Source of the DNA: an uncultured Bdellovibrionales bacterium
GTDB lineage: Bacteria > Patescibacteriota > Minisyncoccia > Moranbacterales > DUUL01
DNA: 64,000 bases
Direction: 5' to 3'
Assembly (NCBI GenBank): GCA_964346295.1
Contig: CAYFUG010000004.1
Location: forward strand, 532 to 64,531
Positions 9,046-60,616 of the stretch are shown piece after piece. Below the pieces are notes generated by a model. The model was not told where the DNA came from, searched no databases, and saw only the letters and a list, made by a program, of their open reading frames with translations. Numbering within the stretch: position 1 is the first letter of the stretch; the number at the start of each line of letters is the position of its first letter. The position numbers and the translations under genes were made by a program.

Positions 9046-9074
9046 TTGACATTTTTTTATAAATATGCTATTAT
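9046..9074 (+). promoter_or_regulatory. Module 1 promoter P1 (sigma70 consensus-like)
   Basis: TTGACA (9046-9051), 17-nt spacer, TATTAT (9069-9074) preceded by TGc. Followed by GTCCAGCTGAAATGG, which resembles the conserved start of the other module transcripts. Confidence 0.6.
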
Positions 9075-9127
9075 AGACCGTCCAGCTGAAATGGGGAGCA
9101 AAAACGGGGGCGAGTAGTGACACGATA

Positions 9128-9156
9128 TTGACAAGGTTTCAAAAATATGCTACACT
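9128..9156 (+). promoter_or_regulatory. Module 1 promoter P2
   Basis: TTGACA, 17-nt spacer, TGcTACACT. Followed by GTCAAGCTAAGAAAAGG (9162-9178), almost identical to 28912-28928 and 59154-59170. Confidence 0.7.
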
Positions 9157-9958: not shown

Positions 9959-9977
9959 TGTTCTTTGAAAATCTTAG
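9959..9977 (+). promoter_or_regulatory. boxA-like antitermination motif (module 1)
   Basis: TGTTCTTTGAAAATCTTAG. The core TGTTCTTTGAAAA matches the Gram-positive rrn boxA consensus and the copies at 29130, 32104 and 59261. Confidence 0.55.
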
Positions 9978-10228: not shown

Positions 10229-11209
10229 ATGACCAATTTCGCGAGCAAATTTGACGGCAAGGGGATCCATGTAATCGCAACCGGTTCGGTGGACGGGGTT
10301 TTGACCACCGCGGCATTTTTGCGGGTGATCGGACTCCATGAGGAGAAGGCAGGGGTGGAGTTTACCCAGGCCTTCACGGTTGACAAGCTGAATCCGGCCC
10401 AGTGGCCGGAGGGGCGGCAGGTCGTTTTCGTGGACCTGGCGGTCAACAATCAGAACCCGGAGATGACGGCGGATTTCGTCCGGCGCATTCGGGAAGCGGG
10501 ACATGAGATCGTTGCCGTATGCGACGAGCACGACGCCGACGCCTGGAAGCGGGTGTTGGGGCAGGAGCCCTTTGAGGCCCTGATCGTAAAGCCCCAAAGT
10601 CAGAAAAAGGGCGAGGCCCAGTCCAGCGGCGCCATTTTATTGGAGGCGCTGGGGGACGAGGCCGATGACCACACTCGCGAGCTGTGCGAAGCCGCGAATG
10701 CCGCCGACCAAATGGATTTTTCCACCCATTTTGGCAGTTACGCCAATCGGGCGGTTAAGTCCGCCATGGGAGACAACTCCCGGCGGGTGCATTTGGCTGG
10801 GCACTTTGCTGCCAACCGGGAGCCGGACGAAGTTATCAGCAGCTGGTGCGCCGAGTACGAGGCGATTATCGCCACCCACGAGGAAGTCCTGGGAAACCGG
10901 GAAGACCTGGGAAGCGGGATCGTCCGGATCGACTGCACTGGCAAGAAGGTGGACATGACCACCTTGATGGGCCAGGTCTACGATCTGCCTGAAACGAAGG
11001 CCTGCCTGGTGATCGGGCCGGTGTATAACAAGGCCAAGGGCGGAATCGAGGTTATGGCCTCCTTCGGAACACGGATTGAAGGCTTCGACATTCAGGCCGC
11101 GATTCAGTCCGAAGGTGTTTCGGCCGGCGGCTTTGCCTCCAAGGCGAATGTCGATCTGGAAAACGAAAAGGCGGCCATTGAGGCCGTCAGAAAAGCGCTT
11201 AACGGCTAG
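10229..11209 (+). CDS. GC-rich cargo protein 1a (326 aa), weak DHH-phosphoesterase-like motifs; function unknown
   Basis: Start chosen at the ATG after GGAGGGAGAAGGAGAGG (the track ORF starts upstream at 10175). GC3-rich codons. Motifs HVIATGSVDG, VVFVDLAV and VAVCDEHDAD. Confidence 0.8.
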   Translation: MTNFASKFDGKGIHVIATGSVDGVLTTAAFLRVIGLHEEKAGVEFTQAFTVDKLNPAQWPEGRQVVFVDLAVNNQNPEMTADFVRRIREAGHEIVAVCDEHDADAWKRVLGQEPFEALIVKPQSQKKGEAQSSGAILLEALGDEADDHTRELCEAANAADQMDFSTHFGSYANRAVKSAMGDNSRRVHLAGHFAANREPDEVISSWCAEYEAIIATHEEVLGNREDLGSGIVRIDCTGKKVDMTTLMGQVYDLPETKACLVIGPVYNKAKGGIEVMASFGTRIEGFDIQAAIQSEGVSAGGFASKANVDLENEKAAIEAVRKALNG

Positions 11210-11685
11210 ACAGTAGCCCCGTTCGTAACTCTCCTCTCTGCTATTTTTATAGTAGAGCAGCGACGAGTGCGTTCGGGGCCTAGCCAAAGATTTTCGTGTG
11301 GTTCAGGGAAAGGAGTTTGTCGGCAACATTCGACAGCTCCTTCCTTCTAAGCTCGGCAACTGAAAGTTTTCAGCTGGTGGTTTTAGAAGGGAATAATGTT
11401 TCCCTAGAGAGTGTATCTCTAAGATATGCTCTAGTTCTTTGACAAGTCCTATTTATACTAGACTCTAAGCTCTGGAGGTTTGATTCTCAAGCTTTTCCCA
11501 TTCCTTAATTTCCTTAAATTCCTAGCTTTACCATCACTGCCTGAGAGCGCAAATACGAATATCCGTTGAAGTAGCGGAAAGTTGTCTAAAATTTGTGCTT
11601 GCAAGTGGTGATGGTAAAAACCCTGGCCGGAATGTTTCCGGTGGGGGTTGGAAGTAATTTTTGAAAAAAGGAAAAAGGAGAAGTC

Positions 11686-25342: not shown

Positions 25343-28009
25343 GTGGAGAGACTTGTTGTCGATAGAAGTGAAGAGAAGAGAAACGGACCGGAAAGAAATC
25401 CGGGGTTTTTTCAGTTAGCTGCTTATCCAAAAGAAGATTGGGATTTGTTAAGGGCTGTGAATAAGGTGTTGTCGAAAGATAGTAGTCGAGTTTATGGTTT
25501 GCAGAGGGCTTTATTGGATTATCCCGAACTAGGGAACGAAGAGACAAAGGAGGTAATTTTAGAAAAGATGGAAGAAGAACTTTTAAGCATTTATTCTGAT
25601 GATTTAAGACTGGAAAATGGAATAAACTCGATAAAAGATGCTTTTGAGGGAATAAGGGGGATTTATTTAGGGAAAATAGAGACAGAGAAGGTTGTGATCG
25701 AGCGAGTCAACCAGCTTTACCCAGCGGAGTTGGAAGCCTTTGAGGATTTATTGGGCGACTTTATAGTTTATAAAAAAGTTTTACCTAAAGATGTTATTCA
25801 GGCAATTTACAGAAATAGGCTAGAGAAAATTGGAAATGTAAATCTTAATAATCTTTTTAGTTATGGAGATGTAGGCTTAGAAAAAGAGTGTTTAGGGGTT
25901 AATGAAAGAATTTTTGAAGCTCTAGAGGAGCTAGCCTTGTTTTCTGATATTTCCGAAGGTCAGAAAGCGGAACTTTTTCAGTCAGTGGCAAGGGGGTTAT
26001 TTGGAAGGGAAAAAAAGTTTTTTGTAGACCCAGAAAAGGCTTTGAGATTTGTAAGAGTCACTTTTCAAAGTCCAGAGACCAAGCGCTATGCCAAGCCACT
26101 TTTCATGAATTATTGGTGGGAGTGGGAGAATGCTATTGAAAAAATGCAGTCAGAAATTGATTTTGAAGATCAGAGCAAGGAGAATATTAGGAAAATAGCA
26201 GAGTTGGCGGAAATTTACGGGGCAGTTTACGGAGAATTGATAAAGAGGGGAATCGAACCTAATAATGATGGGGCAGTTTACATGTTGAATTTTATTAACC
26301 AGGCGGGAGGAGTAGACGATTTTTACCTTAACTTAAAGGTTAAGCAAGCCGTTTTTCTTATTCAGGCTGATGCTTGCCTTTATTATGAGGAAGGCGAGGA
26401 TTGGCAAAAGGAAGGAAGGGCGCAGTTGATTTATAGTGCGGCTCAAACTTTGGGAACTGATCTGCAGCTTAGTGGCGAGGAGCTGCAGCAATTTTTAACT
26501 GATATAAAAGGTTTTTTTGGGCAAAAATTAACTGCCGAAATTGAACCTCTTGTTAAGGGGCAGGTGGCAGCTCCGGGAGTAGAAGGGCATTTTGATGATG
26601 ATTTTGATCTGGTGCTACTGGAGGAGGAGAGAGGCAATGAAGGTGATAGGCTGAAGTTTAGCGAATTTATTAAGTTGAATTACTACGATGTTATTGAAGA
26701 GGGCGATTTTCTGGATTTGATGTTTATGCAAAATTTATTCATCAAGAAGCGAATTTCCCAGGAGTTAGGCGTGGCTTTGCATAACTTAGAGTTGAGAGCT
26801 CAGAATCAGTTTTTAAACTTCATTAAAAATGCCTCCCAGGAGAGAGTGAGACAAGTGGCAGAATTCGTAAAAAATCCAGCAGAAGAAGAGCAGCGCTTAA
26901 ACCGCCTGAGAGTCTTTCTTTCCTTGGAAGAGGGCCATTTTTCAGGAGATCAGCTATTGGACTTGCCTTCCAGGATTGATGCTGACCAAGCGCAGCAAGT
27001 TTTTGACCAGTATGGGAGACTGGTTCAAGACGCTTTTTCGGAGCAGTCGACCCTTCAAGAAGTGCTAAAGAATCCGGAGGATTTGGCCAAAATTGATCAA
27101 GAAAAAATCACTCAAAATTTGCTCTTCCGAGGCCAAAAAATCCTTCAAAGGCTAATTGAGTCTAGCGAGCCAGAGAGAGAGGCAGAAAGTGTTTTATCCA
27201 GCCTTTTAGCACAAAAATGGCAAATTCAACTAGCGGGAGCAGTTTTTAGGGAAGGGATCGAGGCTGGGATGAGTTTAGATGATTTAGAGGGTGGCAGAAT
27301 TGAGGTTTTAACCGTCCAAGACTTAATTCAAAAACCAGAATTGGTGGCTAAAATGAGGGATATTTATTCTAATAATTTCTCCAAAAAACCTGATTTGCAA
27401 GGAGCGGTTTTGCAAGGATTTGATCAAAAAATGACAGAAGGAGGCGTTAATTCGGAGTTTGCTTTGGCCTTTGTGGGCGAAGAATTGGTGGCTTTTAGCC
27501 GCAGTGATCATGTAGACGAAAAAACTCGCTATTTTGCTTCTCTAAACTCTTCTTATGGCGGTGCCAAGTTTGGAGAAGCTCTGAGGAGGAAAAGAGAGGC
27601 TCAGGTGGGAGAAAATTTTGATATTCGGGCTCATAGTGAGCCAGAAAGTGCCATGAGTACGCTGTATATTGGCCCAGAGGGAGGATTTATAGCCGATGGG
27701 GTAGAATTTAATTATCACAACACCGAGGCTAATTTATTCAGTATTACTAGACAAAAAACCCCGCCCAGTTACTATGCTTGGAGTAAGCCTCGAGAAGAGC
27801 TAGTCAAAGAGGCGAAAGAACTTGCGGATAGTGAGATAAGTAGCATTTCTCTAGAAAAGGGTAAGCCTCTGGTTTTAAGCCTCCAGGGGCTAGAAAATAC
27901 ACTAGTGGCACTAAAAACCCTACTCAATGAGCAGGGCGGCCAGTTGACCAATTATTGGTTTCAGGGCGGAAGATATTTTTTAGCTATAGAAAACCCTAAA
28001 TCAAGCTAA
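25343..28009 (+). CDS. Large hypothetical protein (up to 888 aa)
   Basis: Long ORF with a GTG track start; the first ATG is at 25568. No motif recognised. Confidence 0.7.
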   Translation: MERLVVDRSEEKRNGPERNPGFFQLAAYPKEDWDLLRAVNKVLSKDSSRVYGLQRALLDYPELGNEETKEVILEKMEEELLSIYSDDLRLENGINSIKDAFEGIRGIYLGKIETEKVVIERVNQLYPAELEAFEDLLGDFIVYKKVLPKDVIQAIYRNRLEKIGNVNLNNLFSYGDVGLEKECLGVNERIFEALEELALFSDISEGQKAELFQSVARGLFGREKKFFVDPEKALRFVRVTFQSPETKRYAKPLFMNYWWEWENAIEKMQSEIDFEDQSKENIRKIAELAEIYGAVYGELIKRGIEPNNDGAVYMLNFINQAGGVDDFYLNLKVKQAVFLIQADACLYYEEGEDWQKEGRAQLIYSAAQTLGTDLQLSGEELQQFLTDIKGFFGQKLTAEIEPLVKGQVAAPGVEGHFDDDFDLVLLEEERGNEGDRLKFSEFIKLNYYDVIEEGDFLDLMFMQNLFIKKRISQELGVALHNLELRAQNQFLNFIKNASQERVRQVAEFVKNPAEEEQRLNRLRVFLSLEEGHFSGDQLLDLPSRIDADQAQQVFDQYGRLVQDAFSEQSTLQEVLKNPEDLAKIDQEKITQNLLFRGQKILQRLIESSEPEREAESVLSSLLAQKWQIQLAGAVFREGIEAGMSLDDLEGGRIEVLTVQDLIQKPELVAKMRDIYSNNFSKKPDLQGAVLQGFDQKMTEGGVNSEFALAFVGEELVAFSRSDHVDEKTRYFASLNSSYGGAKFGEALRRKREAQVGENFDIRAHSEPESAMSTLYIGPEGGFIADGVEFNYHNTEANLFSITRQKTPPSYYAWSKPREELVKEAKELADSEISSISLEKGKPLVLSLQGLENTLVALKTLLNEQGGQLTNYWFQGGRYFLAIENPKSS

Positions 28010-28762
28010 TTTTCGGGAATAATCCCAGTGAAATTCGAACAGGGATTTGTGCATTTGGTAAATATTGGGATCTTGGATTAGCATAGCGATTTTGTGTTCT
28101 TCTGAAAGGGAGATGTAAATGACTTTTCCTTCGTAAATTTGCATTACAGAACCCGAGAAGGGGTATTTTTCTTGATCAATAAGCTTAATTTCTGTAATAT
28201 CTCGCAGATAATTTTGCAAGTAATTTTTGGCAAAGGCAGAGTCCAGGACCAGAACCTTTTTGTTAAGGTTAAGCTTGGATCTTTTTTTCATGTAGCACTG
28301 ATTGATTTTTTCGGTGTATTTGATAACAGCCTCCAGGTCGGCATAAGTGTAAATAATTTCTTGACTGGTGAGAGTGTCTTCCAGGGCCTCTTGAATGCCT
28401 TCTAGTCCCTCAAAATAGCGGACGTCAGGTTTCTGAGAAACTAAATTAAATTCTGATGTCAGTGCATCTAGATTGGCCGCTAGGTTTTTATGAGTTTTTT
28501 CTAGTTGGGAAGATTGATCGCGGAGTAATTCTTCTAATTGATTAGGGTGTTGAGGATAAAAATGAGTCAATTTTCCCTTTTTTTTGCTAATTACCAGGCT
28601 TTTTTCTTCTAAAGATTCTAAAACATTGTAAACCACCCCCTTTTGGAGGGTGGTTTTTTTAATGATTTCGCTGGCAGGAACTGCTCCAGAGCGAAGCAGG
28701 AATTCGTAAATAGTGGCTTCATTAGGGGTCAGTCCAACTTGAGTAAGGATGTCTTGGTACAT
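28001..28762 (-). CDS. TrmB-family transcriptional regulator (paralog 1)
   Basis: N-terminal wHTH GLTPNEATIYEFLLRSGAVPASEIIKKTTLQKGVVYNVLESLEEKSLV. Divergent from the module 2 promoter. Confidence 0.8.
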   Translation of the reverse strand: MYQDILTQVGLTPNEATIYEFLLRSGAVPASEIIKKTTLQKGVVYNVLESLEEKSLVISKKKGKLTHFYPQHPNQLEELLRDQSSQLEKTHKNLAANLDALTSEFNLVSQKPDVRYFEGLEGIQEALEDTLTSQEIIYTYADLEAVIKYTEKINQCYMKKRSKLNLNKKVLVLDSAFAKNYLQNYLRDITEIKLIDQEKYPFSGSVMQIYEGKVIYISLSEEHKIAMLIQDPNIYQMHKSLFEFHWDYSRKLA

Positions 28763-28877: not shown

Positions 28878-28906
28878 TTGACAATTTTTTAATAATATGC
28901 TACAAT
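28878..28906 (+). promoter_or_regulatory. Module 2 promoter (consensus sigma70, extended -10)
   Basis: TTGACA, 17-nt spacer, TGcTACAAT. A/T-rich upstream tract. Followed by GTCAAGCTAAGAAAAGG (28912-28928). Confidence 0.75.
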
Positions 28907-29129
28907 GCCTTGTCAAGCTAAGAAAAGGGTAAAACTCCGAAGCTTGAAGAACTGAAAGGTTCTAGCCAAATAAGAATAGTTGGCTCTTAGTACATTATAT
29001 CGAGAATAACCACACAACACAAACCACAGGAAAGTTTCTTGCAAGGCTTTTCTAGAGGTGTTTTTTGTGTTGTGGAAACATTCTCTAGCAAGAGCCCTGC
29101 AAAAAACTCTCCTATCACGGGGAGTTTTT

Positions 29130-29154
29130 TGTTCTTTGAAAACTCAGAAATCAG
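29130..29154 (+). promoter_or_regulatory. boxA-like antitermination motif (module 2, leader copy)
   Basis: TGTTCTTTGAAAACTCAGAAATCAG. Preceded by a terminator-like hairpin at 29101-29130. Confidence 0.6.
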
Positions 29155-29172
29155 TAAAGTGGTTTTCTCCTA

Positions 29173-29251
29173 GGGCTTTTGTCCTTGGTAGGCAGCTTAG
29201 TGCTTATGAAAGTTTGTAAGCGCTGAGCTGTTTATCAAGCAAGGAAAGCCC
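29173..29251 (+). promoter_or_regulatory. 79-nt imperfect hairpin after boxA (RNase III-like)
   Basis: GGGCTTT...CCTTG...CAGCTTAGTGCTTAT-GAAAG-...GTAAGCGCTGAGCTG...CAAGG...AAAGCCC. Confidence 0.6.
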
Positions 29252-29335
29252 GGGCGTCCTAGTCACCGGGAAATTTTACAAAAAAATTATCCGGGCTGTA
29301 CTAGGCAGCCCATTTTTCAGAAAAGGAGAAAGACC

Positions 29336-29785
29336 ATGAAGAAGAATTTCAAACTCGTTCCCGGATCCAAAGGTGCTCGCCGCTCCTTCGCCGTTACTTG
29401 TGGCCTGCAAGAGGGCTACGAAGACGGAACCCTTCACACTTTCCAGGAGGCCGTTGAGGTTGCCTTGGAATGGATGAGGGGGCGGGCCGCCGCCGGTGAG
29501 CAGTACTTGACTGGGACCTTCGTCCAGGGTGAGGTGGTGTTTGCCTGGCCCGAAGGCCCTGGCAAGGCCGGTGGCGGTCACGAGGCGACGGTGATTTACC
29601 AGGGCGAGGTCAGCCCGATCTACAACGCGGGCATGACCGATGAAGAGGCCGTCGAGATCCTCAATGACCTGGCGGCCCATCTGGGGACCGCTCTGGGCCA
29701 GACCCGGGTCTATGTCGCCTTGTGCGACCAGATCTGGATTCTCCAGGCGGAAGAGACGGAAACCCCCACCGGGGAGACCGTCTAG
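29336..29785 (+). CDS. GC-rich cargo protein 2a (149 aa), unknown function
   Basis: AAAGGAGAAAGACC-ATG. GC3-rich. Antisense shadow ORFs are present. Confidence 0.75.
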   Translation: MKKNFKLVPGSKGARRSFAVTCGLQEGYEDGTLHTFQEAVEVALEWMRGRAAAGEQYLTGTFVQGEVVFAWPEGPGKAGGGHEATVIYQGEVSPIYNAGMTDEEAVEILNDLAAHLGTALGQTRVYVALCDQIWILQAEETETPTGETV

Positions 29786-30072
29786 CGGCCGTTTTTCTGT
29801 CCCCCTTCAATTTGCTTTTGGCATTTAGGAGGGGGCAGCGCTGATTTCTGAGTAAGAGGGTTCAAGGAAGGCGGATTCACATTGTGCGTCCGCCTCCTTT
29901 TCTCAAATCTCAAGTTTAATTGAGGTTTGAGATGAAGGATTGCACCTTGAAAAATTTTCCCTATTTCTCCTTTCAATTGCCTTTTTTCACTTAGTGAAAA
30001 CAAATCCAACTTCGTTGATTGAAGTGAGGCAATTGACGATTTTCAACTGAAAAAAGGGAGAGGAGAAGGGGC

Positions 30073-30513
30073 ATGAAAATTCGAGTCAGGGATCCCAAAG
30101 AGGCGGCCGCCATTACCGGTGGCTGCACCTTTGAACCGGCTATCGGTTGGTGGACCTATACCGACCAGCCGGAAGAGCACGGAAGGCTGGGGCGGCTGTT
30201 TGAGGGGGAGCGGGATGCTTTATATATCCCCACACTCCAGAAAAATGGTCAGCCGGTGGCGGAAGAGGCCATTGCCCGCTTTAAGGTGCGAGCCAAGGAG
30301 TTGGGTTTTGGTGAAATCTCCGGAGCCTCCGGTATGTGGATTTTGTCCGACACGGGGGAGGCCCAGGTCGAGTACATCTGGATCTGTTGGGCTTCCCAAG
30401 TTTCGGATGAGACGCGGTCTCAGATGGCCGCGTTGGCAGAGGAAATCAAAGCCGCCACTAACCAGGACTGCGTGGCCTGGGAAAACGGCGGCCAGCTATT
30501 TTTCACGGGATAA
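30073..30513 (+). CDS. GC-rich cargo protein 2b (146 aa), unknown function
   Basis: GGGAGAGGAGAAGGGGC-ATG. Confidence 0.75.
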   Translation: MKIRVRDPKEAAAITGGCTFEPAIGWWTYTDQPEEHGRLGRLFEGERDALYIPTLQKNGQPVAEEAIARFKVRAKELGFGEISGASGMWILSDTGEAQVEYIWICWASQVSDETRSQMAALAEEIKAATNQDCVAWENGGQLFFTG

Positions 30514-30526
30514 GGAGGAGACACTT

Positions 30527-31306
30527 ATGAAACGGATTTTTGTTGTCCCTATCAACGATGGGGAGGCGGTAGAGATTAGGAATCTCCTACAGGATGGCGG
30601 TGAAGTGGTTGTGGAAAGCGTCCTCCGTTGGGGAGCCCGATGGGAGAAGCTGGAACCGGAGGTGGTGGCGGAGATCGAAAGGCTTCGCTCCCTTAATCCG
30701 GGAGTTCAGATCTACGGCGTGGAGCTGGCCGGCCCCAATCAGTGGGGGGCTCGCAACATCGACCACCACAAGTACCAGGATGAGGATCGGAGTAATTCCA
30801 AGTCCTCCCTGGAGCAAGTGGCGGAGTTGTTGGGCGTCCAGCTGACCCGGCACCAATTTTTGGTTTCGGAGAATGACAAGGGTTGGATCCCGGCGCTAAT
30901 AGCGGCCGGAGCCAGTCCCGACGAGATCGAACTGGTGCGGGCGCAGGATCGCCAGGCCCAGGGGGTTACCCCTGACGACGAAGCCCAGGCTCTTCGGGAT
31001 ATCGAGGCGGCCCAGTGGCAAGGTCGGAAGGTCTGGCTCCAGTGTCTCAAGGGGGCCACCTCGGCCCACACTGACCGGCTCTTTGGTCAGTTTGACGAAG
31101 CCCTGACGGTGGATGGGGTCAACGGAAAGTGGATCTATTTTGGTCCGCGATCCGAAGATTTCTTCGCCCTCACCGAAGGGGGCACCGAAGGGATACGCTG
31201 GAAAAGCCCTCGACCAGGGGGGTACTCCGGGGCGGAAAAGCCCCAGGAGGAGACCCAGGAAGCAATCCGGAATTTTTTTGGGAGTAATTCCCTTACCTCT
31301 TTTTAG
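30527..31306 (+). CDS. GC-rich cargo protein 2c (259 aa), contains NIDHH motif; unknown function
   Basis: Start taken at the ATG after TAAGGAGGAGACACTT, 14 nt after the 2b stop. The track ORF 30119-31306 has an implausible N-terminal extension that overlaps 2b. Confidence 0.75.
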   Translation: MKRIFVVPINDGEAVEIRNLLQDGGEVVVESVLRWGARWEKLEPEVVAEIERLRSLNPGVQIYGVELAGPNQWGARNIDHHKYQDEDRSNSKSSLEQVAELLGVQLTRHQFLVSENDKGWIPALIAAGASPDEIELVRAQDRQAQGVTPDDEAQALRDIEAAQWQGRKVWLQCLKGATSAHTDRLFGQFDEALTVDGVNGKWIYFGPRSEDFFALTEGGTEGIRWKSPRPGGYSGAEKPQEETQEAIRNFFGSNSLTSF

Positions 31307-31457
31307 CTAAGACGCACTAAGGAGAAGGACAAAATCAGCGTCGGGTTCAGATGGGCTGGCGAGAACCTCGTTAGCCCATCCTTTCCTAGTTCAGCACTAA
31401 AGTGGTGGTGGGCTAAGAAGGGATTAACGAAAAATCACCAAAAAAGGAGGCCCCAAA

Positions 31458-32003
31458 GTGTCTTTAACAAAAGAGCAATTCTCCAGATTAGCGAAGGTAG
31501 CGCTCCAGGTGGCAAAAGAGCGGGGCCAGAGCTTTTACGGGTGGGTTAATCCGCCTCAAATAGAGAGTGGAAAATTGACCCATGACTCCGGAAAAGGACC
31601 CCAGAAGATTTCTCCGGAAGAATCCCTGGCGATTTATAAGAGGAAGCTGGACGGGGTCTATGGGGAGAGATTCATTACCTCTTTGGGCACAATAGCTGCT
31701 TTGATAGCCAATGGCTATTCGGTGCGGCTGGTGCAGTTTTACAAGGAGGTAGGCCTGCCTTTTGACGCGGAGGGTTGGCTAGTGGTGATAATCGAAACCA
31801 TGCCAATTTTCCATGTTTCGCCGGGGGATCTGCGCCTGGAGCAGGTGGCGGATCTGGTTGAGGTGCTAGATGACAATCAAGCGCCCGATGTCTGCCACAA
31901 GGGCACCGACAAGCCGGGAGAGTTTGCGGCTCTTTTGCAGGGCTCTCTTTCTCCGGAGTTGGATTTGGTCAAGATTGCCCAGGAAAACAGTGGCAATTTT
32001 TGA
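31458..32003 (+). CDS. GC-rich cargo protein 2d (181 aa), unknown function
   Basis: AAAAAGGAGGCCCCAAA-GTG start. Confidence 0.7.
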   Translation: MSLTKEQFSRLAKVALQVAKERGQSFYGWVNPPQIESGKLTHDSGKGPQKISPEESLAIYKRKLDGVYGERFITSLGTIAALIANGYSVRLVQFYKEVGLPFDAEGWLVVIIETMPIFHVSPGDLRLEQVADLVEVLDDNQAPDVCHKGTDKPGEFAALLQGSLSPELDLVKIAQENSGNF

Positions 32004-32037
32004 TTCTGTCTACTTTCGATTTTCGTTCATTTCCAAT

Positions 32038-32084
32038 GGATCAGGTGTCATTGTGCATCTGATCCGGAATTCTGAGCTTAGCTC
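32038..32084 (+). promoter_or_regulatory. Conserved trailer element: hairpin plus CCGGAATTCTGAGCTT
   Basis: GGATCAGGTG...CATCTGATCC hairpin, then CCGGAATTCTGAGCTTAGCTC. Homologous to 60573-60616. Partly complementary to the transcript 5' end at 28914-28924. Confidence 0.5.
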
Positions 32085-32103
32085 TATTAAGAGGTAGGTT
32101 CAG

Positions 32104-32128
32104 CGTTCTTTAAAAACTCAGAAATCAG
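32104..32128 (+). promoter_or_regulatory. boxA-like motif (module 2, internal spacer copy)
   Basis: CGTTCTTTAAAAACTCAGAAATCAG. Confidence 0.55.
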
Positions 32129-32269
32129 GAAAATCCAACTTTCTATCTTTTCTCTTTGTCTTCTAAAAGTTGTTGGTTACCCGAGAGAATTTAATCTAGT
32201 TAATGAACTGAATTAGCCAGTTAAGTTTTTTTGGGCAACCAACAACCAAGGAAAGAGAAGGAGGAAGAC

Positions 32270-32518
32270 ATGAGATACCAAGGAGCGAGAGAATACAAGG
32301 GCCAGAGGGTGGAAATCCAGCTGCGGGCTGGGGGCAATAATCCCGGAAACGCCTCGGTAACGCTGGTTATCAAAATGGATGGCCAGGAGGTTTTTCGGAG
32401 AAGTGCCGGCCGAGACGGAATGGGCCAGGTGGAAGCCCTGGCCGTGGCTGAAGTGGCCAAGGTCCAAGAGTTGGGCGAAGAAATATATATCGTCCAGTTC
32501 AATGCCGAAGCTATCTAG
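32270..32518 (+). CDS. GC-rich cargo protein 2e (82 aa), unknown function
   Basis: GAAGGAGGAAGAC-ATG. The track ORF starts at an upstream TTG. Confidence 0.65.
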   Translation: MRYQGAREYKGQRVEIQLRAGGNNPGNASVTLVIKMDGQEVFRRSAGRDGMGQVEALAVAEVAKVQELGEEIYIVQFNAEAI

Positions 32519-32703
32519 CCCTTACCTTAGAATTTTTTTGATTTCTAGGCCCTCTCCATCAGGCCTCCTGCGAAGTTAGCAGGTTTTAAAAATTTGGATG
32601 GTAGTCCGAGCGGCGGAAATGACTCAAAACTATCCGCAAAATTAGCCCTGACAATCAGGGCCGGCCGAGGCAAGCGCAATGCCGCTTTAGCCTAAGAGGC
32701 CAC

Positions 32704-32836
32704 CAAAAGGCCCGAAAGAGTCTGGCCAACGCGCTAAATCTTTCGGAGGGACGAACTTGTTGAACACAACATTTTCGTCCCCTCTACTAGCAACTTAATT
32801 TGAGACTTGATCTTTTATTGAGTTGCTTGAGAGAAT
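32704..32836 (+). repeat. 133-bp direct repeat, copy 1 (structured element flanking cargo gene 2f)
   Basis: 131/133 identical to 34003-34135. Contains GGCCCGAAAGAGTCTGGCC and GAGGGACGAA...TTCGTCCCCTC hairpins. Confidence 0.9.
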
Positions 32837-32852
32837 CTATTTTGAAAGGCGA

Positions 32853-32864
32853 GTTCTTTGAAAT
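32853..32864 (+). promoter_or_regulatory. Short boxA-core-like string
   Basis: GTTCTTTGAAAT. Only the core is conserved. Confidence 0.35.
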
Positions 32865-32924
32865 ATATCCAAAGCTTCATTGTAATCTTTGGGTACTTCA
32901 ACCAAACCAGAAAAGGGGGATGCC

Positions 32925-33971
32925 ATGGGTAAATTTCAGGAAATCACACTGGAATTATTGTTGGAAAATGAAGTTTTGAGGAAGTATCTTCTCAAGGCAA
33001 GAATTGGTCCAGCTAAAAAAGGCGACGGTGCTTTTGTGGGGACTTATGATATTGCCCCGAAGGAGTTTCGGAGTTTTGGAATTGTTTTGCCCAGGGGCGG
33101 GATGATTATTCCAGGGGCAGATCCTGTCAAGTTAAAGGAAATGGTCAAGGAGCCTGAGCGCCGGCGTGAGGCGGAGGACTTGGCAAATCGTCGTGCTGTT
33201 GAAAAAGATTATCTCAATCAGGTGAAAGAGATAATTGCTGAAGCTGGCCTCACGGATATTGAAGTGGTGGAAGAAGACGGAGTGGACTTCCATAGTATCG
33301 GCGCCACCAGCTGGCACAAGAGCTTTTTGGTAAGAGAAGGAGAGAAAATCTTCAGTCTTCACAGCGAAGAGGAGCCGTATCGTGGCTTAGATGACGATGG
33401 TTCGTACGAGCCGTGGAGGACGGAGTTTACTCCGTTGGAAGAGGTGAAATCCTTCCTTGAAGAGGAGGCGCGTCTTGTTGGTCCGAGAAAAATGTTTGCT
33501 GATCGGATCAGGCGGCTTATTGATATAAGCCACAATGTTGGTCAGCAAGGGCCAGATGAAACTGGCTGGGATCGCCCTCGAGTGGAATTATTTTTGTACG
33601 ATGACTATAAAAAAGGCAGGGACTGGGGTTTTTTCGGTCATCGTTGTCAGGGTATCTCTTCGGCCCACAGGATTTACTATCGAAAAAAACTCTATGAGAT
33701 TACCGAAGAAGGCATTTCTCGCCTTGAGTATGAAATCGGAGAAAGGGAGGAGGCGCTAGAAGCAAGACGAGCGATGCTCAAAAGACTCTTCGAAGAGAAG
33801 GGCAGAGTTTTTGAGGAACTCAAAGAAGAGAAAGATTGCTATGCCGGAAAGTCACTGGCAACCGGCAAGGCAAAGTACGATGAGTGGACTGAAACGCGCT
33901 ACTTTCTCGGCGACACAGAAGTTACCGAGGAAGAGCGTGATTGGCTGAAGGGCTTACCTAAGGATAATTAG
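32925..33971 (+). CDS. Cargo protein 2f (348 aa), Glu/Arg-rich, unknown function
   Basis: AAAAGGGGGATGCC-ATG. The track start at 32889 is a TTG. Confidence 0.75.
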   Translation: MGKFQEITLELLLENEVLRKYLLKARIGPAKKGDGAFVGTYDIAPKEFRSFGIVLPRGGMIIPGADPVKLKEMVKEPERRREAEDLANRRAVEKDYLNQVKEIIAEAGLTDIEVVEEDGVDFHSIGATSWHKSFLVREGEKIFSLHSEEEPYRGLDDDGSYEPWRTEFTPLEEVKSFLEEEARLVGPRKMFADRIRRLIDISHNVGQQGPDETGWDRPRVELFLYDDYKKGRDWGFFGHRCQGISSAHRIYYRKKLYEITEEGISRLEYEIGEREEALEARRAMLKRLFEEKGRVFEELKEEKDCYAGKSLATGKAKYDEWTETRYFLGDTEVTEEERDWLKGLPKDN

Positions 33972-34002
33972 TGGATAAGGCCCTCAAGACTCTTCAAATT
34001 TT

Positions 34003-34135
34003 CAAAAGGCCCGAAAGAGCCTGGCCAACGCGCCAAATCTTTCGGAGGGACGAACTTGTTGAACACAACATTTTCGTCCCCTCTACTAGCAACTTAATTT
34101 GAGACTTGATCTTTTATTGAGTTGCTTGAGAGAAT
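34003..34135 (+). repeat. 133-bp direct repeat, copy 2
   Basis: See 32704-32836. There are two substitutions between the copies. Confidence 0.9.
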
Positions 34136-34169
34136 TTTGATAGATCTTAGGAAAGTTAATAGATACAGC

Positions 34170-34204
34170 AAAAAAGCGCCGGTATTAGTCCCGGCGCTTT
34201 TTTA
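34170..34204. terminator. Strong bidirectional intrinsic terminator (end of module 2; also downstream of gyrA)
   Basis: AAAAAAGCGCCGG-TATTAGTC-CCGGCGCTTTTTT. Confidence 0.8.
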
Positions 34205-34243
34205 TTCTACTGCTTTTAGCTATTCAATTCCCCTAATCCCTCC

Positions 34244-58051: not shown

Positions 58052-58837
58052 TTAAGCTGGCAAAGTTTTCCAAAGTTGCTCAAATTGGGTGCGTTGGAGA
58101 GCGTAGATTTGAGGATCTTCGATAATGATGGAAATTAACCCGGAGGACCCGATTGCCTGGTAGGAGATTTTATTGTGATAAATTTGAATGGAAGCGCTGA
58201 AGTTAAGGGCGCTTTTTTTAATGAAACGCACTTGAGTGATGGCCTGGTAATTAGCGGGAGCAGTTCGATATTCTTCGATTATTCCGGGTTCATCAAGATC
58301 GATAATCCTTTTTTGGAGCCCCAAACGGGCTCTTTTTTGAGTGTAGCGAGCGTTGATCTTCTCATTGTTTTTGGCTAATTTCGGATCAGTGGTTCTAAAA
58401 ATAGCAGCAGAATCGATTAAAGTGAGAATTTCCGTGTCGCTGCGCAAAGTGTCCTCCAGCACTTTCTCTAGACCTTCGGAGCCCTCTAAAAAGCGAATTC
58501 CTGGTCGATTGAGGCCCAAATTGTATAAAGAAGCTAAGTTAGGCGCCATCTCTAAGAAGGCGCTTTTTTGTTGCTTAAATTCTTGCTCTTTTTGATCGAG
58601 GATTTTTTGGATTTGAGCCGGGTGTTGAGCGGAAAAACGGGCTACTTTGCCTTTTTTATCAAGCCTAAAGACTAGTTCCAGGTTCTCTAGCTCAGCCAGA
58701 ATTTTATAGGCGGCTTCTCTGGGGCGGTTGGTTTTTTGGGCAATTTCTCGGGCTCGGGTCGGTCCGTTTTGGTAGAGGAATTCCAAGATTTGGGCTTGGG
58801 AGGGGGTGAGGCCGATGCTTTGGAGAAGTTCCAGCAT
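58052..58837 (-). CDS. TrmB-family transcriptional regulator (paralog 3)
   Basis: GLTPSQAQILEFLYQNGPTRAREIAQKTNRPREAAYKILAELENLELV. Divergent from the module 3 promoter. Confidence 0.8.
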   Translation of the reverse strand: MLELLQSIGLTPSQAQILEFLYQNGPTRAREIAQKTNRPREAAYKILAELENLELVFRLDKKGKVARFSAQHPAQIQKILDQKEQEFKQQKSAFLEMAPNLASLYNLGLNRPGIRFLEGSEGLEKVLEDTLRSDTEILTLIDSAAIFRTTDPKLAKNNEKINARYTQKRARLGLQKRIIDLDEPGIIEEYRTAPANYQAITQVRFIKKSALNFSASIQIYHNKISYQAIGSSGLISIIIEDPQIYALQRTQFEQLWKTLPA

Positions 58838-59119: not shown

Positions 59120-59148
59120 TTGACAAATATTAATTATTATGCTACAAT
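59120..59148 (+). promoter_or_regulatory. Module 3 promoter (consensus sigma70, extended -10)
   Basis: TTGACA, 17-nt spacer, TGcTACAAT. A/T-rich upstream. Followed by GTCAAGCTCAGAAAAGG (59154-59170). Confidence 0.75.
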
Positions 59149-59260
59149 GCTCTGTCAAGCTCAGAAAAGGTTCAGATTCGTGGGTTTTGATTGTTGGAAT
59201 AATTTTGAGATCCGGAAAAAGGCTTAAAAAGCTTTTCTCGGGCTCTCAAAGCAGAGCCTA

Positions 59261-59285
59261 GGTTCTTTGAAAACTTAGAAATCAG
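59261..59285 (+). promoter_or_regulatory. boxA-like antitermination motif (module 3)
   Basis: GGTTCTTTGAAAACTTAGAAATCAG. Confidence 0.6.
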
Positions 59286-60572: not shown

Positions 60573-60616
60573 GGATCAGGCTCGCAATGCGCGCTTGGTC
60601 CGGAATTCTGAGCTTG
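60573..60616 (+). promoter_or_regulatory. Conserved trailer element: hairpin plus CCGGAATTCTGAGCTTG
   Basis: GGATCAGGC...GCTTGGTCC hairpin. TTCTGAGCTTG (60606-60616) is the exact reverse complement of CAAGCTCAGAA at the transcript 5' end (59156-59166). Confidence 0.55.

What the first reader, a model, noticed from the sequence alone, without database searches (positions are those of the whole stretch)
28878..34204. rRNA-operon-like transcription scaffold carrying six GC-rich, SD-led orphan genes (archetype of a three-member family)
Seen in the sequence, in order:
- a consensus TTGACA-17-TGcTACAAT promoter with an A/T-rich upstream tract
- a conserved transcript start, GTCAAGCTAAGAAAAGG
- an AT-rich structured leader
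- TGTTCTTTGAAAACTCAGAAATCAG (29130)
- a 79-nt imperfect hairpin
- four GC-rich ORFs
- a conserved hairpin plus CCGGAATTCTGAGCTT trailer (32038-32084)
- a second boxA-like copy (32104)
- two more ORFs
- a strong terminator (34170-34204)

Established knowledge: strong promoters, a leader boxA, a second boxA in the internal spacer, and leader/trailer stems are the defining layout of bacterial rrn operons. They underlie Nus-factor antitermination and RNase III processing. TGTTCTTTGAAAACT is the Gram-positive-type rrn boxA.

Inference: protein-coding cargo sits where 16S and 23S would be, which would give Rho-resistant, high-level, processed transcripts. No rRNA sequence is present. I know of no described system with this organisation.
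Basis: partly seen in the sequence, partly recalled or inferred. Interest (0 to 1): 0.92.

Follow-up and report, generated by a model that had tools for sequence, protein, structure and literature searches.

The report
Strong boxA expression cassettes in CPR bacterium
An ultra-small (CPR/Patescibacteria-type) bacterium carries three insulated high-expression gene cassettes with rRNA-operon-style control signals. Their GC-rich cargo includes enzymes related to CRISPR signal-degrading phosphodiesterases and a captured piece of another organism's CRISPR regulator, which hints at a possible counter-defence toolkit.

Summary
The sequence features are real. Three loci (about 9046-12460, 28878-34204, 59120-60707) share a consensus TTGACA-17-TGnTAnAAT promoter and a conserved transcript start. 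They also share a boxA-like GTTCTTTRAMAA element found nowhere else in the 64 kb, long hairpins before each SD, and flanking terminators.

The genes are not all orphans:
- O3 is an NrN-family DHH phosphodiesterase (PDB 9lq9, profile E 1.7e-44; TM 0.81).
- P7 (locus 1) has a DHH/DHHA1 fold.
- P8 (locus 3) is an in-frame fragment, the sigma-binding N-domain of Csx30. It is 92% nucleotide-identical to csx30 next to gRAMP/Cas7-11 in a GC-rich organism from the same microbial-mat sample.

O1-O2-O3 and P7 cassettes recur across Patescibacteria. They often sit beside a divergent TrmB regulator, run 8-29 GC points above their genome, and carry boxA only on the cassette strand. In relatives, type III hammerhead ribozymes occupy the spacers.

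So this is an old family of regulated, probably antiterminated and processed protein operons, not a gutted rrn operon. The comparison with the organism's true rrn operon could not be made. A counter-defence role for the cargo is plausible but unproven.

The parts
28001..28762 (-). Divergent TrmB-family transcriptional regulator, the likely regulator of locus 2
   Evidence: Pfam TrmB E 1.2e-10. It is 36-41% identical to the TrmB genes upstream of locus 3 and of orthologous cassettes L019 and L020. GC is host-like at 0.38.
28878..28906 (+). Consensus sigma-70 promoter with extended -10 (TTGACA-17-TGCTACAAT), preceded by an A/T-rich tract
   Evidence: 11 of 12 hexamer matches plus the TG. The consensus pattern has 3 matches in the window against 0.09 expected. 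It belongs to promoter family D1.
28912..28928 (+). Conserved transcript start GTCAAGCTAAGAAAAGG
   Evidence: Exact copy at 9162 and a 1-mismatch copy at 59154.
28912..29335 (+). Structured 424-nt leader. It includes the hairpin 29002-29085 and two hairpin-plus-T-run sites (29109-29124 and 29293-29311).
   Evidence: MFE -163.6 kcal/mol, z = -9.35. Terminator-like sites. No Rfam family matched.
29131..29142 (+). Leader boxA-like element GTTCTTTGAAAA (the conserved block extends over 29130-29154)
29167..29256 (+). Long near-perfect hairpin after boxA, a candidate double-strand RNase site
   Evidence: -55.2 kcal/mol, z = -5.78.
29336..29785 (+). O1, 149 aa, function unknown. It recurs upstream of the O2-O3 pair in some related loci.
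   Evidence: tblastn hits in L020, L027, L028, L049 and others. No Pfam or PDB match. GC3 0.76.
30073..30513 (+). O2, 146 aa, function unknown. It lies directly upstream of O3 in every CPR-type locus where it was detected.
   Evidence: About two dozen loci show O2 immediately before O3; 20 of them are aligned. No Pfam or PDB match.
30527..31306 (+). O3, 259 aa, an NrN-family DHH phosphodiesterase
   Evidence: Profile against PDB 9lq9 'NrN' E 1.7e-44. PADLOC DHH_CorA 3.2e-31. AF2 pLDDT 94. Foldseek hit 9lqa TM 0.81, E 3.7e-20. H80 is invariant and D79/H81 are at least 90% conserved; E13 is invariant and D117 at least 90% conserved.
31458..32003 (+). O4, 181 aa, function unknown
   Evidence: Homologous segments in L093 and L095. 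No family hit.
32038..32079 (+). Trailer: a hairpin plus CCGGAATTCTGAGCTT. Its TTCTGAGCTT is complementary to the transcript start.
   Evidence: The same 16-mer lies at 60600-60615. These are the only two exact + strand matches to TTCTNAGCTT in the window. In this locus the pairing has one A-G mismatch.
32105..32116 (+). Spacer boxA-like element GTTCTTTAAAAA (conserved block 32104-32128)
   Evidence: (family D12).
32169..32248 (+). Long hairpin after the spacer boxA and before the O5 SD
   Evidence: z = -5.88.
32270..32518 (+). O5, 82 aa, with no relatives found
   Evidence: No hits.
32704..32836 (+). First copy of a 133-nt structured direct repeat that brackets O6
   Evidence: 98% identical to 34003-34135.
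32925..33971 (+). O6, 348 aa. It matches the first ~345 residues of 441-508 aa relatives, so it may be C-terminally truncated.
   Evidence: The relatives have no Pfam domains.
34003..34135 (+). Second copy of the 133-nt repeat
34172..34204 (+). Intrinsic terminator that closes locus 2
   Evidence: A GC stem followed by a T run, read. Downstream lies the convergent gyrA gene.
9046..9156 (+). Locus 1: tandem promoters (TTGACA-17-TGCTATTAT and TTGACA-17-TGCTACACT, 82 nt apart)
   Evidence: Family D1. Sequence.
9960..9971 (+). Locus 1 leader boxA, followed by the long hairpin 10018-10110
   Evidence: Hairpin z = -8.07.
10229..11209 (+). P7, 326 aa, a DHH/DHHA1-fold phosphoesterase with a DEH motif
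   Evidence: AF2 pLDDT 96. Foldseek hits to PggH 7d62 (TM 0.60), GdpP, NrnA and RecJ, E about 1e-9. 114 homologue clusters, of which the few that carry a source name are mostly Patescibacteria MAGs. D99, E100 and H101 are invariant.
11434..11445 (+). Locus 1 spacer boxA GTTCTTTGACAA, ahead of ORF 11686-12459
58052..58837 (-). Divergent TrmB/MarR-type regulator of locus 3. The regulator plus cassette sit between mreC and mreD.
   Evidence: Pfam TrmB 6.6e-11. MreC at 57131-58018 and MreD at 61522-62046.
59120..59170 (+). Locus 3 promoter (TTGACA-17-TGCTACAAT) and conserved start GTCAAGCTCAGAAAAGG
59262..59273 (+). Locus 3 boxA, followed by the long hairpin 59313-59395
   Evidence: Hairpin z = -7.72.
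59421..60554 (+). P8, 377 aa: the N-terminal (sigma-binding) domain of Csx30. The captured fragment spans 59434-60537. The first 4-5 codons and the last 5 differ from csx30 and presumably belong to the cassette.
   Evidence: PDB 8eey_E Csx30 E 2.7e-7. 87% aa identity to the 576-aa P0103. 92% nt identity over 1104 nt without gaps to csx30 in L023 and L107, and 86% to L022. The junctions are sharp. The donor genes adjoin gRAMP/Cas7-11 (PADLOC E = 0) and a CHAT protease.
60573..60615 (+). Locus 3 trailer: a hairpin plus CCGGAATTCTGAGCTT, with a 12-nt perfect complement to the transcript start
60676..60707 (+). Intrinsic terminator that closes locus 3
   Evidence: Read.

Best explanation
The three loci belong to an old family of insulated high-expression protein cassettes in Patescibacteria (CPR).

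Shown by the sequence:
- Each cassette opens with a near-consensus sigma-70 promoter; loci 2 and 3 and many orthologous cassettes also have a divergent TrmB-type regulator gene.
- It is transcribed through a long, highly structured leader.
- It contains a boxA-like RNA element in the leader and again in internal spacers.
- Long hairpins sit just before each Shine-Dalgarno site.
- An intrinsic terminator closes each locus; locus 1 also has one just upstream.

Inferred mechanism:
- TrmB sets promoter activity.
- The boxA RNA recruits NusB/NusE. The resulting termination-resistant polymerase can read through the many hairpin and T-run sites and through Rho.
- The long stems are cut or act as stabilisers. 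In relatives, type III hammerhead ribozymes do this job. Each cistron would then end up as a separate, stable, well-translated mRNA.

Cargo: it includes two DHH-type phosphodiesterases (O3, NrN-like; P7, PggH/NrnA-like), several unknowns, and in locus 3 a captured in-frame N-terminal domain of Csx30 from a type III-E CRISPR host.

The resemblance to rrn operons reflects shared use of the same transcription and processing toolkit. It does not indicate descent from an rrn operon.
For: - Promoter, start and boxA are shared by the three loci and are rare elsewhere in the window.
- GTTCTTT[GA]A[AC]AA is found 12 times on the cassette strand and never on the other strand in 332 kb of CPR-type loci. 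It lies upstream of cargo ORFs or 100-130 nt after them.
- A long hairpin follows boxA in 7 of 9 cases, z -4.7 to -8.1, with unrelated sequences.
- The leaders fold far better than shuffles.
- Hairpin-plus-T-run sites lie inside the leader ahead of the first ORF.
- Full-length Hammerhead_3 matches (36-47 bits, E 4e-9 to 5e-4), plus further sites that match only the catalytic-core pattern, lie in leaders and spacers of orthologous cassettes, all on the cassette strand. In L028 the hammerhead ends 5 nt before a boxA.
- TrmB is divergent upstream in loci 2 and 3 and in L019, L020, L024, L025, L030, L031, L035, L095 and L096.
- Cargo GC stays at 0.48-0.61 while flank GC ranges from 0.23 to 0.49.
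- The assembly is reproduced independently.
- BoxA control of non-rRNA transcripts is established (PMC7665894; bioRxiv 10.1101/091223).
Against: - No transcript data are available. NusB/NusE binding, read-through and cleavage are all inferred.
- The organism's own rrn boxA could not be recovered, so calling the motif boxA rests on its match to the Firmicute/E. coli consensus, which I give from my own knowledge.
- The exact boxA 12-mer is absent from several orthologous loci (L019, L025, L030, L031, L035).
- No hammerhead or other known ribozyme occurs in the window itself.
- Nus/boxA complexes are best known to counter Rho rather than intrinsic terminators.
- Locus 1 has no adjacent TrmB gene.
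Confidence: 0.5

Rival explanations
1. One reading: these are rrn-operon scaffolds in which protein genes have replaced 16S and 23S, that is, pseudo-rrn operons.
For: - BoxA-like elements in both leader and spacer, tandem promoters in locus 1, long stems, and a 5'/3' complement.
- The cargo holds about 50-60% GC regardless of genome GC, as rRNA genes do.
Against: - No rRNA fragments even at permissive thresholds.
- Orthologous protein cassettes occur across divergent Patescibacteria, many of them next to a TrmB regulator, so the arrangement is ancient and protein-coding.
- The leader/trailer complement is weak outside locus 3.
Confidence: 0.12
2. Gene-capture platform or mobile cassette: the scaffold (regulator, promoter, leader, trailer) is an insertable module that acquires foreign coding fragments by recombination, somewhat like an integron.
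For: - Locus 3 (TrmB plus cassette) sits between mreC and mreD.
- A csx30 fragment was captured in frame with sharp junctions.
- O6 is bracketed by 133-nt direct repeats and may be truncated.
- Repeated spacer modules occur in L020.
- A Y1 transposase lies next to the P7 orthologue in L024.
Against: - No integrase or transposase was found among the annotated window ORFs.
- O1-O3 and P7 are conserved in similar contexts at 45-67% identity, which points to vertical descent.
- Only one clear capture event is documented.
Confidence: 0.25
3. Ordinary housekeeping: nucleotide-salvage and nanoRNase operons (DHH phosphodiesterases, with NDK and a DEAD helicase in relatives) are expressed strongly because CPR bacteria scavenge nucleotides. 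On this reading the GC excess is codon bias of highly expressed genes.
For: - P7 has an NrnA/PggH-like fold.
- NDK and a DEAD helicase sit in the orthologous operon L020, and a DEAD helicase in L025.
- The family is widespread in Patescibacteria.
Against: - It does not explain a truncated Csx30 under the same scaffold.
- The closest solved relative of O3 is a SAM-AMP-specific enzyme that does not cut pApA or cyclic oligoadenylates (PMC10600005).
- A GC3 shift of 0.2-0.35 is large for expression-linked codon bias. No ribosomal-protein genes were available in the window for comparison.
Confidence: 0.3
4. The conserved 12-mer is not a Nus site. It is another cis element, for example an RNase entry site, a site for an unknown RNA-binding protein, or a ribosome standby site.
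For: - Its position is fixed relative to a long hairpin and the SD rather than to the promoter.
- In relatives it follows a hammerhead cleavage site, so it would lie at the new 5' end.
Against: - By my own knowledge it is identical to the Firmicute-type rrn boxA and matches 10 of 13 positions of E. coli TGCTCTTTAACAA.
- It is strictly strand-specific.
Confidence: 0.2
5. Assembly chimera at the GC transitions.
For: Abrupt GC steps.
Against: - The same arrangement appears in independent ENA and Logan assemblies.
- The cargo is in frame with scaffold start and stop codons.
- Orthologous loci show the same contrast.
Confidence: 0.02

Closest known systems
Bacterial rrn operon antitermination and processing system (boxB-boxA-boxC, NusB/NusE/NusA/NusG/SuhB, RNase III leader-trailer helices)
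   Same: Strong (in locus 1 tandem) promoters, a boxA-like element in leader and spacer, a hairpin just before boxA, long stems and insulating terminators.
   Different: No rRNA is present and the cargo is translated. The 5' strand of the putative leader-trailer pairing is the very start of the transcript. The loci are linked to a TrmB regulator. Identity with the organism's own rrn signals is untested.
BoxA/Nus-dependent non-rRNA targets: the suhB leader (bioRxiv 10.1101/091223, PMC5725501) and CRISPR array leaders (PMC7665894)
   Same: A boxA on the transcript near the 5' end of a non-rRNA unit, proposed to prevent premature termination.
   Different: Here there are multi-cistron protein operons with a second boxA in internal spacers, each followed by a long hairpin. 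They occur in Patescibacteria, which those two studies, as far as I read them, do not discuss. No function has been tested.
Hammerhead ribozymes in bacterial intergenic regions, and the synthetic RiboJ insulator (hammerhead plus hairpin before the RBS). Both are cited from my own knowledge.
   Same: In relatives, a type III hammerhead, then boxA, then a hairpin precede the SD. Self-cleavage would uncouple each cistron from its upstream RNA.
   Different: The window itself has no ribozyme, only long hairpins. The hammerheads score just under Rfam's gathering threshold (36-47 bits against 48.5).
NrN, the CorA-associated DHH phosphodiesterase of type III-B CRISPR that degrades SAM-AMP (PMC10600005; PDB 9lq9-9lqc)
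   Same: O3 shares its fold (TM 0.81), its DHH motif, and the residues mutated in the deposited structures (E21 and D119 correspond to E13 and D117).
   Different: No CorA, Cas10 or CRISPR array is nearby. O3 is always paired with the unknown O2. About 28% identity. Substrate unknown.
Csx30 of type III-E CRISPR (Craspase substrate and anti-sigma factor for CASP-sigma/RpoE; PMC10028731)
   Same: P8 is the N-terminal domain that suffices to bind CASP-sigma. It is 87% identical in protein to full-length Csx30 genes that lie next to gRAMP.
   Different: P8 stops at the inter-domain linker (about residue 377). It lacks the C-terminal domain that Craspase recognises and cleaves. It sits in a genome window with no type III-E genes, under a foreign promoter.
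Anti-CRISPR and anti-signalling proteins of mobile elements, such as viral ring nucleases and SAM-AMP lyases proposed as anti-CRISPRs (PMC10600005 discussion)
   Same: A signal-degrading phosphodiesterase and a dominant-negative-looking fragment of a CRISPR regulator.
   Different: They are encoded in a cellular (episymbiont-type) chromosome, not in a virus or plasmid. The site of action and any delivery route are unknown.

Membership tests
rrn (rRNA) operon | Contains 16S/23S/5S rRNA genes | tested here: not met
   Rfam at gathering and at permissive thresholds finds no rRNA in the window or the loci. Conserved rRNA motifs are absent from all fetched loci.
rrn (rRNA) operon | boxA in the leader and again in the internal spacer | tested here: met
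   GTTCTTTGAAAA at 29131 and GTTCTTTAAAAA at 32105. The same arrangement occurs in locus 1 (9960 and 11434).
rrn (rRNA) operon | Leader-trailer helix enclosing the mature product | tested here: inconclusive
   A 12-nt perfect complement in locus 3, 10 nt with one mismatch in locus 2, an imperfect one in locus 1, and none in L024 or L025.
rrn (rRNA) operon | Same promoter and boxA as the genuine rrn operon of the same genome | not testable with these tools
   The extended boxA gave 0 hits in metagenome contigs and only chance hits in GTDB genomes. No fetched locus holds rRNA.
BoxA/Nus-factor antiterminated transcription unit | boxA consensus on the transcribed strand downstream of the promoter | tested here: met
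   All 5 copies in the window are on the + strand and lie 109-812 nt downstream of a conserved transcript start or in a spacer.
BoxA/Nus-factor antiterminated transcription unit | Conservation of the element in relatives beyond chance | tested here: met
   12 hits on the + strand against 0 on the - strand for GTTCTTT[GA]A[AC]AA in 332 kb of CPR-type loci. It is present in L024, L028, L047, L051 and L052, and absent from several others.
BoxA/Nus-factor antiterminated transcription unit | NusB/NusE binding and boxA-dependent read-through | not testable with these tools
   This needs biochemistry or transcriptomics.
NrN family (DHH phosphodiesterase, SAM-AMP specific) | Sequence and fold homology with an intact DHH catalytic motif | tested here: met
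NrN family (DHH phosphodiesterase, SAM-AMP specific) | Genomic association with CorA or a type III CRISPR-Cas10 system | tested here: not met
   No such genes in the window or in the gene tables of the CPR loci that carry one. The GC-rich locus L021, which lacks the CPR cassette context, has Cas10 and RAMP genes about 3.5 kb away.
NrN family (DHH phosphodiesterase, SAM-AMP specific) | Hydrolysis of SAM-AMP | not testable with these tools
   Enzymology is needed.
Csx30 (type III-E accessory protein) | Homology to the Csx30 N-terminal, sigma-binding domain | tested here: met
   PDB 8eey_E E 2.7e-7. 87% identity to full-length proteins that lie next to gRAMP.
Csx30 (type III-E accessory protein) | C-terminal domain with the Craspase recognition surface and cleavage loop | tested here: not met
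   P8 ends at residue 377. The alignment shows that the last ~200 residues are missing. The domain map comes from PMC10028731.
Csx30 (type III-E accessory protein) | Encoded beside gRAMP/Cas7-11 and Csx29 | tested here: not met
   None in the window. This is true of the donor-type loci L022, L023 and L107.
Type III hammerhead ribozyme | Complete catalytic core with three stems | tested here: not met
   Not present in the window. It is present in the orthologous cassettes L019, L028, L029, L031, L035, L036 and L047 as full-length RF00008 matches at 36-47 bits (gathering 48.5); L030 and L032 match only the catalytic-core pattern.
Integron gene-cassette array | IntI tyrosine recombinase with attI and attC sites | tested here: not met
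   No recombinase among the window ORFs scanned, although not every small ORF was scanned. The spacer repeats are direct repeats, not attC-like.
DHH/DHHA1 phosphoesterases (NrnA, PggH, GdpP, RecJ) - applies to P7 | Two-domain DHH/DHHA1 fold with a metal-binding motif | tested here: met
   Foldseek probability 1.0, E about 1e-9. The motif is DEH (D99, E100, H101 invariant) instead of DHH. There is no sequence-level Pfam hit.

The most novel reading that the evidence does not exclude
The cassettes are a counter-defence arsenal of an episymbiotic Patescibacterium aimed at its host's type III CRISPR signalling. On this reading:
- O3 (with its partner O2) destroys SAM-AMP-type messengers.
- P7 destroys other (cyclic) oligonucleotide signals.
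- P8 is an uncleavable Csx30 decoy. It keeps the host's CASP-sigma factor sequestered even after Craspase is activated.

The rrn-style promoter, boxA and processing scaffold would then be a plug-in platform that lets newly captured, compositionally foreign host gene fragments be expressed at high level. The capture of csx30 from an organism living in the same mat would also point to the host.
Probability: 0.2. Interest if true: 0.92.

Novelty: new variant of a known kind. Interest (0 to 1): 0.75.

Why it matters
- It would add Patescibacteria, and multi-gene protein operons, to the short list of non-rRNA transcripts governed by boxA.
- It would show a natural design of promoter, ribozyme or hairpin, boxA, hairpin and SD. 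This design parallels engineered insulators.
- The persistent 8-29 point GC excess of the cargo across genomes of 23-49% GC is unexplained. It is a clean comparative signal for selection on mRNA composition.
- The captured Csx30 N-domain is a concrete, testable candidate inhibitor of type III-E signalling.
- It is also a rare genomic clue to who interacts with an uncultured CPR bacterium. Donor-type and recipient contigs occur in the same mat sample.

Tried and rejected
- **Finding the genuine rrn operon or close relatives by DNA pattern.** The extended boxA 24-mer gave 0 hits in metagenome contigs. A looser pattern in GTDB genomes gave 14 loci; none of the 4 scanned with Rfam holds a known RNA and the 2 read in full look like chance matches. 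No rRNA motifs occur in any of the 107 loci.
- **Rfam on all three loci at permissive thresholds.** Nothing credible turned up.
- **Family and structure searches for the unknown ORFs.** Pfam, PHROGs, PADLOC and PDB sequence searches for O1, O2, O4, O5 and O6 gave no significant family.
- **Profile comparison of P7 with O3.** They are unrelated at sequence level.
- **Phage origin.** tblastn of O3 and P8 against 50,697 phage records gave no match.
- **CRISPR targeting of this genome.** I extracted spacers from the type III-E arrays on L022 (8) and L107 (16). None matches the window beyond 14-nt chance hits.
- **Leader-trailer complement in the orthologous loci L024 and L025.** Absent.
- **Cloning or synthetic artefact.** I raised this because GGATCC and GAATTC occur near the junctions. 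I rejected it because the sites are at background frequency (13 and 23 in 64 kb) and the loci recur in environmental assemblies.
- **Naming the organism from cluster annotations.** No names are held for its proteins. The assignment to Patescibacteria rests on named homologues (Taylorbacteria, Portnoybacteria, Uhrbacteria) and on synteny.

Full report

- The promoter is TTGACA (28878) - 17 nt - TACAAT (28906), with a TG two bases upstream of the -10 and an A/T-rich tract before it. It is the best promoter-like site in the region (11 of 12).
- The strict pattern TTGACA-N16-18-TANAAT has only three matches in the 64 kb (0.09 expected). Two of them head loci 2 and 3.
- The 17-mer GTCAAGCTAAGAAAAGG recurs exactly at 9162 and with one mismatch at 59154.
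- The extended boxA string recurs at 29132, 32106 and 59263, where none is expected.
- The shorter core TTCTTTRAMAA has five matches in the window. All are on the + strand and all lie inside the three loci: 9961, 11435, 29132, 32106 and 59263 (1.5 expected).
- The leaders fold far better than shuffled controls (z = -9.35 and -4.66).
- The cargo ORFs have strong SD sites, clear codon-position periodicity, and GC3 of 0.48-0.76 against 0.37-0.48 for gyrA, secD and other host genes.
- Locus 2 is assembled identically in a JGI metagenome and in two independent ENA microbial-mat assemblies and a Logan assembly. The GC steps are therefore not assembly joins.

**2. The family in the window**

All three loci have the same plan.
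- Locus 1 (9046-12460): tandem promoters 82 nt apart, a leader of about 1.07 kb, boxA at 9960, a long hairpin, P7 (10229-11209), a second boxA at 11434, then ORF 11686-12459.
- Locus 2: the finding itself.
- Locus 3 (59120-60707): promoter, start, boxA at 59262, a long hairpin, P8, trailer and terminator.

Other shared features:
- Loci 2 and 3 share a trailer, a hairpin plus CCGGAATTCTGAGCTT. Its TTCTGAGCTT is the reverse complement of the transcript start. These are the only two exact + strand matches to TTCTNAGCTT in the window.
- That pairing is perfect over 12 nt only in locus 3. It has one mismatch in locus 2, is imperfect in locus 1, and is absent in the orthologous loci L024 and L025. 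I treat the leader-trailer helix as possible, not shown.
- Loci 2 and 3 each have a divergently transcribed TrmB-family regulator immediately upstream (28001-28762 and 58052-58837). The two are 36% identical to each other.
- Locus 3 with its regulator lies between mreC and mreD.

**3. The genes are not all orphans**

O3:
- It has 101 homologue clusters.
- A profile of 36 members hits the solved protein 'NrN' (9lq9) at E = 1.7e-44.
- PADLOC calls it DHH_CorA (3.2e-31).
- An AlphaFold model (pLDDT 94) superposes on NrN bound to SAM-AMP with TM 0.81.
- H80 and E13 are invariant, and D79, H81 and D117 are conserved in at least 90% of the family. E13 and D117 correspond to the residues mutated in the deposited structures.
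- NrN is the CorA-associated phosphodiesterase of type III-B CRISPR. It specifically degrades the second messenger SAM-AMP (PMC10600005).

P7:
- It has 114 homologue clusters. Of the five that carry a source name, four are from Patescibacteria MAGs (Portnoybacteria, Uhrbacteria, 'Patescibacteria group') and one is labelled Pseudomonadales.
- Its model (pLDDT 96) has the two-domain DHH/DHHA1 fold of PggH, GdpP, NrnA and RecJ.
- It carries an invariant DEH motif.

P8:
- It matches Csx30 of the type III-E system (PDB 8eey_E, E = 2.7e-7).

The rest:
- O1, O2 and O4 have homologues in related loci, and O6 has 45 representative clusters. None has an assignable family.
- O6 matches only the first ~345 residues of relatives of 441-508 aa.
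- O5 found no relative among the related loci or in the domain libraries; it was not searched against the large protein collections.

**4. P8 is a captured fragment**

- Its nearest relatives are 572-576 aa proteins (87% and 81% identity). They are encoded directly upstream of gRAMP/Cas7-11 (PADLOC E = 0) and near a CHAT protease, on GC-rich contigs (0.53-0.56) that also carry CRISPR arrays.
- At DNA level, window 59434-60537 is 92% identical, without gaps, to csx30 in L023 and L107, and 86% to L022. Homology stops abruptly at both ends.
- The first 4-5 codons (MKKIF) and the last five codons before the stop (KGGDN) have no counterpart in csx30 and presumably belong to the cassette.
- P8 therefore corresponds to residues ~10-377 of Csx30.
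- Strecker et al. (PMC10028731) map a linker at 377-406 and the Craspase cleavage site at 427-429. They show that the N-terminal domain suffices to bind the sigma factor CASP-sigma. They also show that the C-terminal domain is what Craspase recognises.
- P8 thus keeps the sigma-binding domain and lacks everything the protease needs.
- Against the donor-type gene there are 33 synonymous and 42 non-synonymous codon differences out of 367 codons. By my rough estimate this corresponds to a dN/dS of about 0.4, so the copy is not a free-running pseudogene.
- L107 comes from the same ENA sample (ERZ922771) as one of the CPR contigs that carries locus 2. Donor-type and recipient organisms therefore co-occur.
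- The window contains no type III-E genes.

**5. Relatives show what is conserved**

- I fetched loci with O3 or P7 homologues.
- In every CPR-type locus where O2 is detected, it sits immediately upstream of O3, often with O1 before it.
- A TrmB gene lies divergently upstream in most loci with enough upstream flank (L019, L020, L024, L025, L030, L031, L035, L095, L096). L026 and L047 have none.
- Near-consensus promoters with an extended -10 head the leaders in L024, L025 and L047.
- The cargo is always GC-richer than its genome. O3 orthologues are 0.48-0.57 against far flanks of 0.23-0.49. P7 orthologues are 0.49-0.61 against 0.32-0.46.
- NrN homologues in loci that lack the O2 partner show at most a 0.11 excess and usually 0.03-0.07. 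The TrmB genes have host-like GC.
- Because these proteins are only 45-67% identical to each other, the excess cannot come from one recent transfer. It is maintained, and I cannot explain it.
- The 12-mer GTTCTTT[GA]A[AC]AA occurs 12 times on the cassette strand and never on the opposite strand in 332 kb. It lies upstream of cargo genes or 100-130 nt after them. It is missing from several loci.
- A long, near-perfect hairpin of unrelated sequence follows boxA in 7 of 9 cases (z -4.7 to -8.1).

**6. Hammerhead ribozymes in relatives**

- The leader of L047 contains a complete type III hammerhead (RF00008, 47.0 bits against a gathering score of 48.5, E = 4.3e-9, full model).
- A core-motif scan and a second Rfam run found more, all on the cassette strand and all in leaders or spacers: L019 (two, flanking the O1-like gene), L028, L029 (two), L031, L035 and L036 as full-length Rfam matches. 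Further sites in L030, L032, L035 and the end of L047 match only the catalytic-core pattern.
- In L028 the hammerhead ends 5 nt before a boxA.
- The window has none. At the corresponding places it has long hairpins.
No paper ranked at the top of a search combining 'hammerhead ribozyme' with the CPR names holds both terms.

**7. Mechanism**

Shown: the promoters, the conserved start, the strand-specific boxA-like element, the hairpins, the terminators, the TrmB linkage, the identities of O3, P7 and P8, and the ribozymes in relatives.

Inferred:
- TrmB controls the promoter.
- boxA RNA recruits NusB/NusE, which makes RNA polymerase resistant to Rho and helps it pass the hairpin and T-run sites at 29109-29131 and 29293-29318.
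- The long stems are RNase III-type substrates or stabilisers. They play the role the hammerheads play in relatives.

BoxA control of non-rRNA transcripts has precedent in suhB (bioRxiv 10.1101/091223) and in CRISPR arrays (PMC7665894). That GTTCTTTGAAAA is the Firmicute-type rrn boxA is my own knowledge, not a tool result. The organism's own rrn operon could not be obtained.

**8. What the cargo does**

There are two readings.
- Conservative: nucleotide turnover and salvage (DHH nanoRNase-like enzymes, with NDK and a DEAD helicase in L020 and a DEAD helicase in L025).
- Bolder: counter-defence against type III CRISPR signalling. On this reading O3 removes SAM-AMP-like messengers, P7 removes other oligonucleotide signals, and P8 acts as an uncleavable anti-sigma decoy.

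The second reading explains why a Csx30 N-domain from a co-resident organism sits under this scaffold. It needs a way for the proteins to meet the host system, for which there is no evidence. No spacer from the two donor-type arrays matches the 64 kb available. I give it about 0.2.

**9. Verdict**

The rrn analogy is a fair description of how the scaffold probably works, but these loci are not rrn operons, and there is no sign that they derive from one. Several of the 'orphans' have informative relatives. The finding is best filed as a new variant of boxA-type antiterminated, processed operons. It has two features that deserve follow-up: the maintained GC excess of the cargo, and the in-frame capture of a CRISPR regulator domain.

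Noticed in passing
L047 6487-6541; L019 8741-8795 and 9416-9470; L028 3384-3452; L029 1362-1416 and 1978-2032; L031 7423-7478; L035 8850-8904; L036 811-870: Type III hammerhead ribozymes (RF00008, full model, 36-47 bits, just under the gathering score) punctuate the orthologous cassettes in other Patescibacteria. All are on the cassette strand. Pairs that flank a gene could release RNAs with 5'-OH and cyclic-phosphate ends.
   Followed up: partly
window 57131-62046: The TrmB regulator plus locus 3 sit between mreC (57131-58018) and mreD (61522-62046), which are normally adjacent genes. This suggests that the whole module was inserted there.
   Followed up: partly
window 32704-32836 and 34003-34135: A 133-nt structured direct repeat (98% identical) brackets O6. 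L020 likewise has repeated spacer modules between its cistrons (5078-5164, 6293-6375, 10098-10124; 7895-7990, 10176-10285).
   Followed up: partly
window 6258-7505, 7623-8957, 47103-48377: There are three paralogous AAA_14/DUF4143 ATPases (PADLOC candidate defence family PDC-S01). Two of them are preceded by 33-nt tandem direct repeats (7573-7638 and 47018-47128). An orthologue lies between TrmB and the P7 cassette in L024.
   Followed up: no
window 24122-24206, 44200-44284, 49634-49718; 6079-6147, 34304-34372, 42263-42331; 34223-34290, 41275-41342, 41953-42020: Several families of 60-85-nt intergenic repeats (62-85% identical) are scattered through the window. Their function is unknown.
   Followed up: no
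window 55953-56363: Bacterial class A RNase P RNA (144.6 bits). Its upstream region has a TACAAT -10 but not the TTGACA/TG consensus of the cassettes.
   Followed up: partly
window 2811-5273: An SNF2-family helicase with similarity to ZorD, DpdE and DrmD defence helicases. The scores are well below the curated cut-offs.
   Followed up: no
L107 1-1210 and L022 20-610: These are type III-E CRISPR arrays with the repeat GTTGGGGAAGCCGCTCTGATTTGATGTCACGGAAC, on the csx30 donor-type contigs. L107 is from the same ENA sample as a CPR contig that carries locus 2. No spacer matches the window.
   Followed up: yes
L021 10001-20744: In a GC-rich locus that lacks the CPR cassette context, the O3 homologue lies about 3.5 kb from a type III CRISPR effector cluster (Cas10 palm and RAMP proteins). 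This fits the CRISPR-linked ancestry of the family.
   Followed up: no
L024 11222-11716: An IS200/IS605-type Y1 transposase gene lies directly downstream of the P7 orthologue.
   Followed up: no
L020 3949-3969 and 13079-13099: A 21-nt complement (81%) links the leader to the region just before the operon terminator, 9.1 kb away. It could be a leader-trailer helix or a chance match.
   Followed up: no
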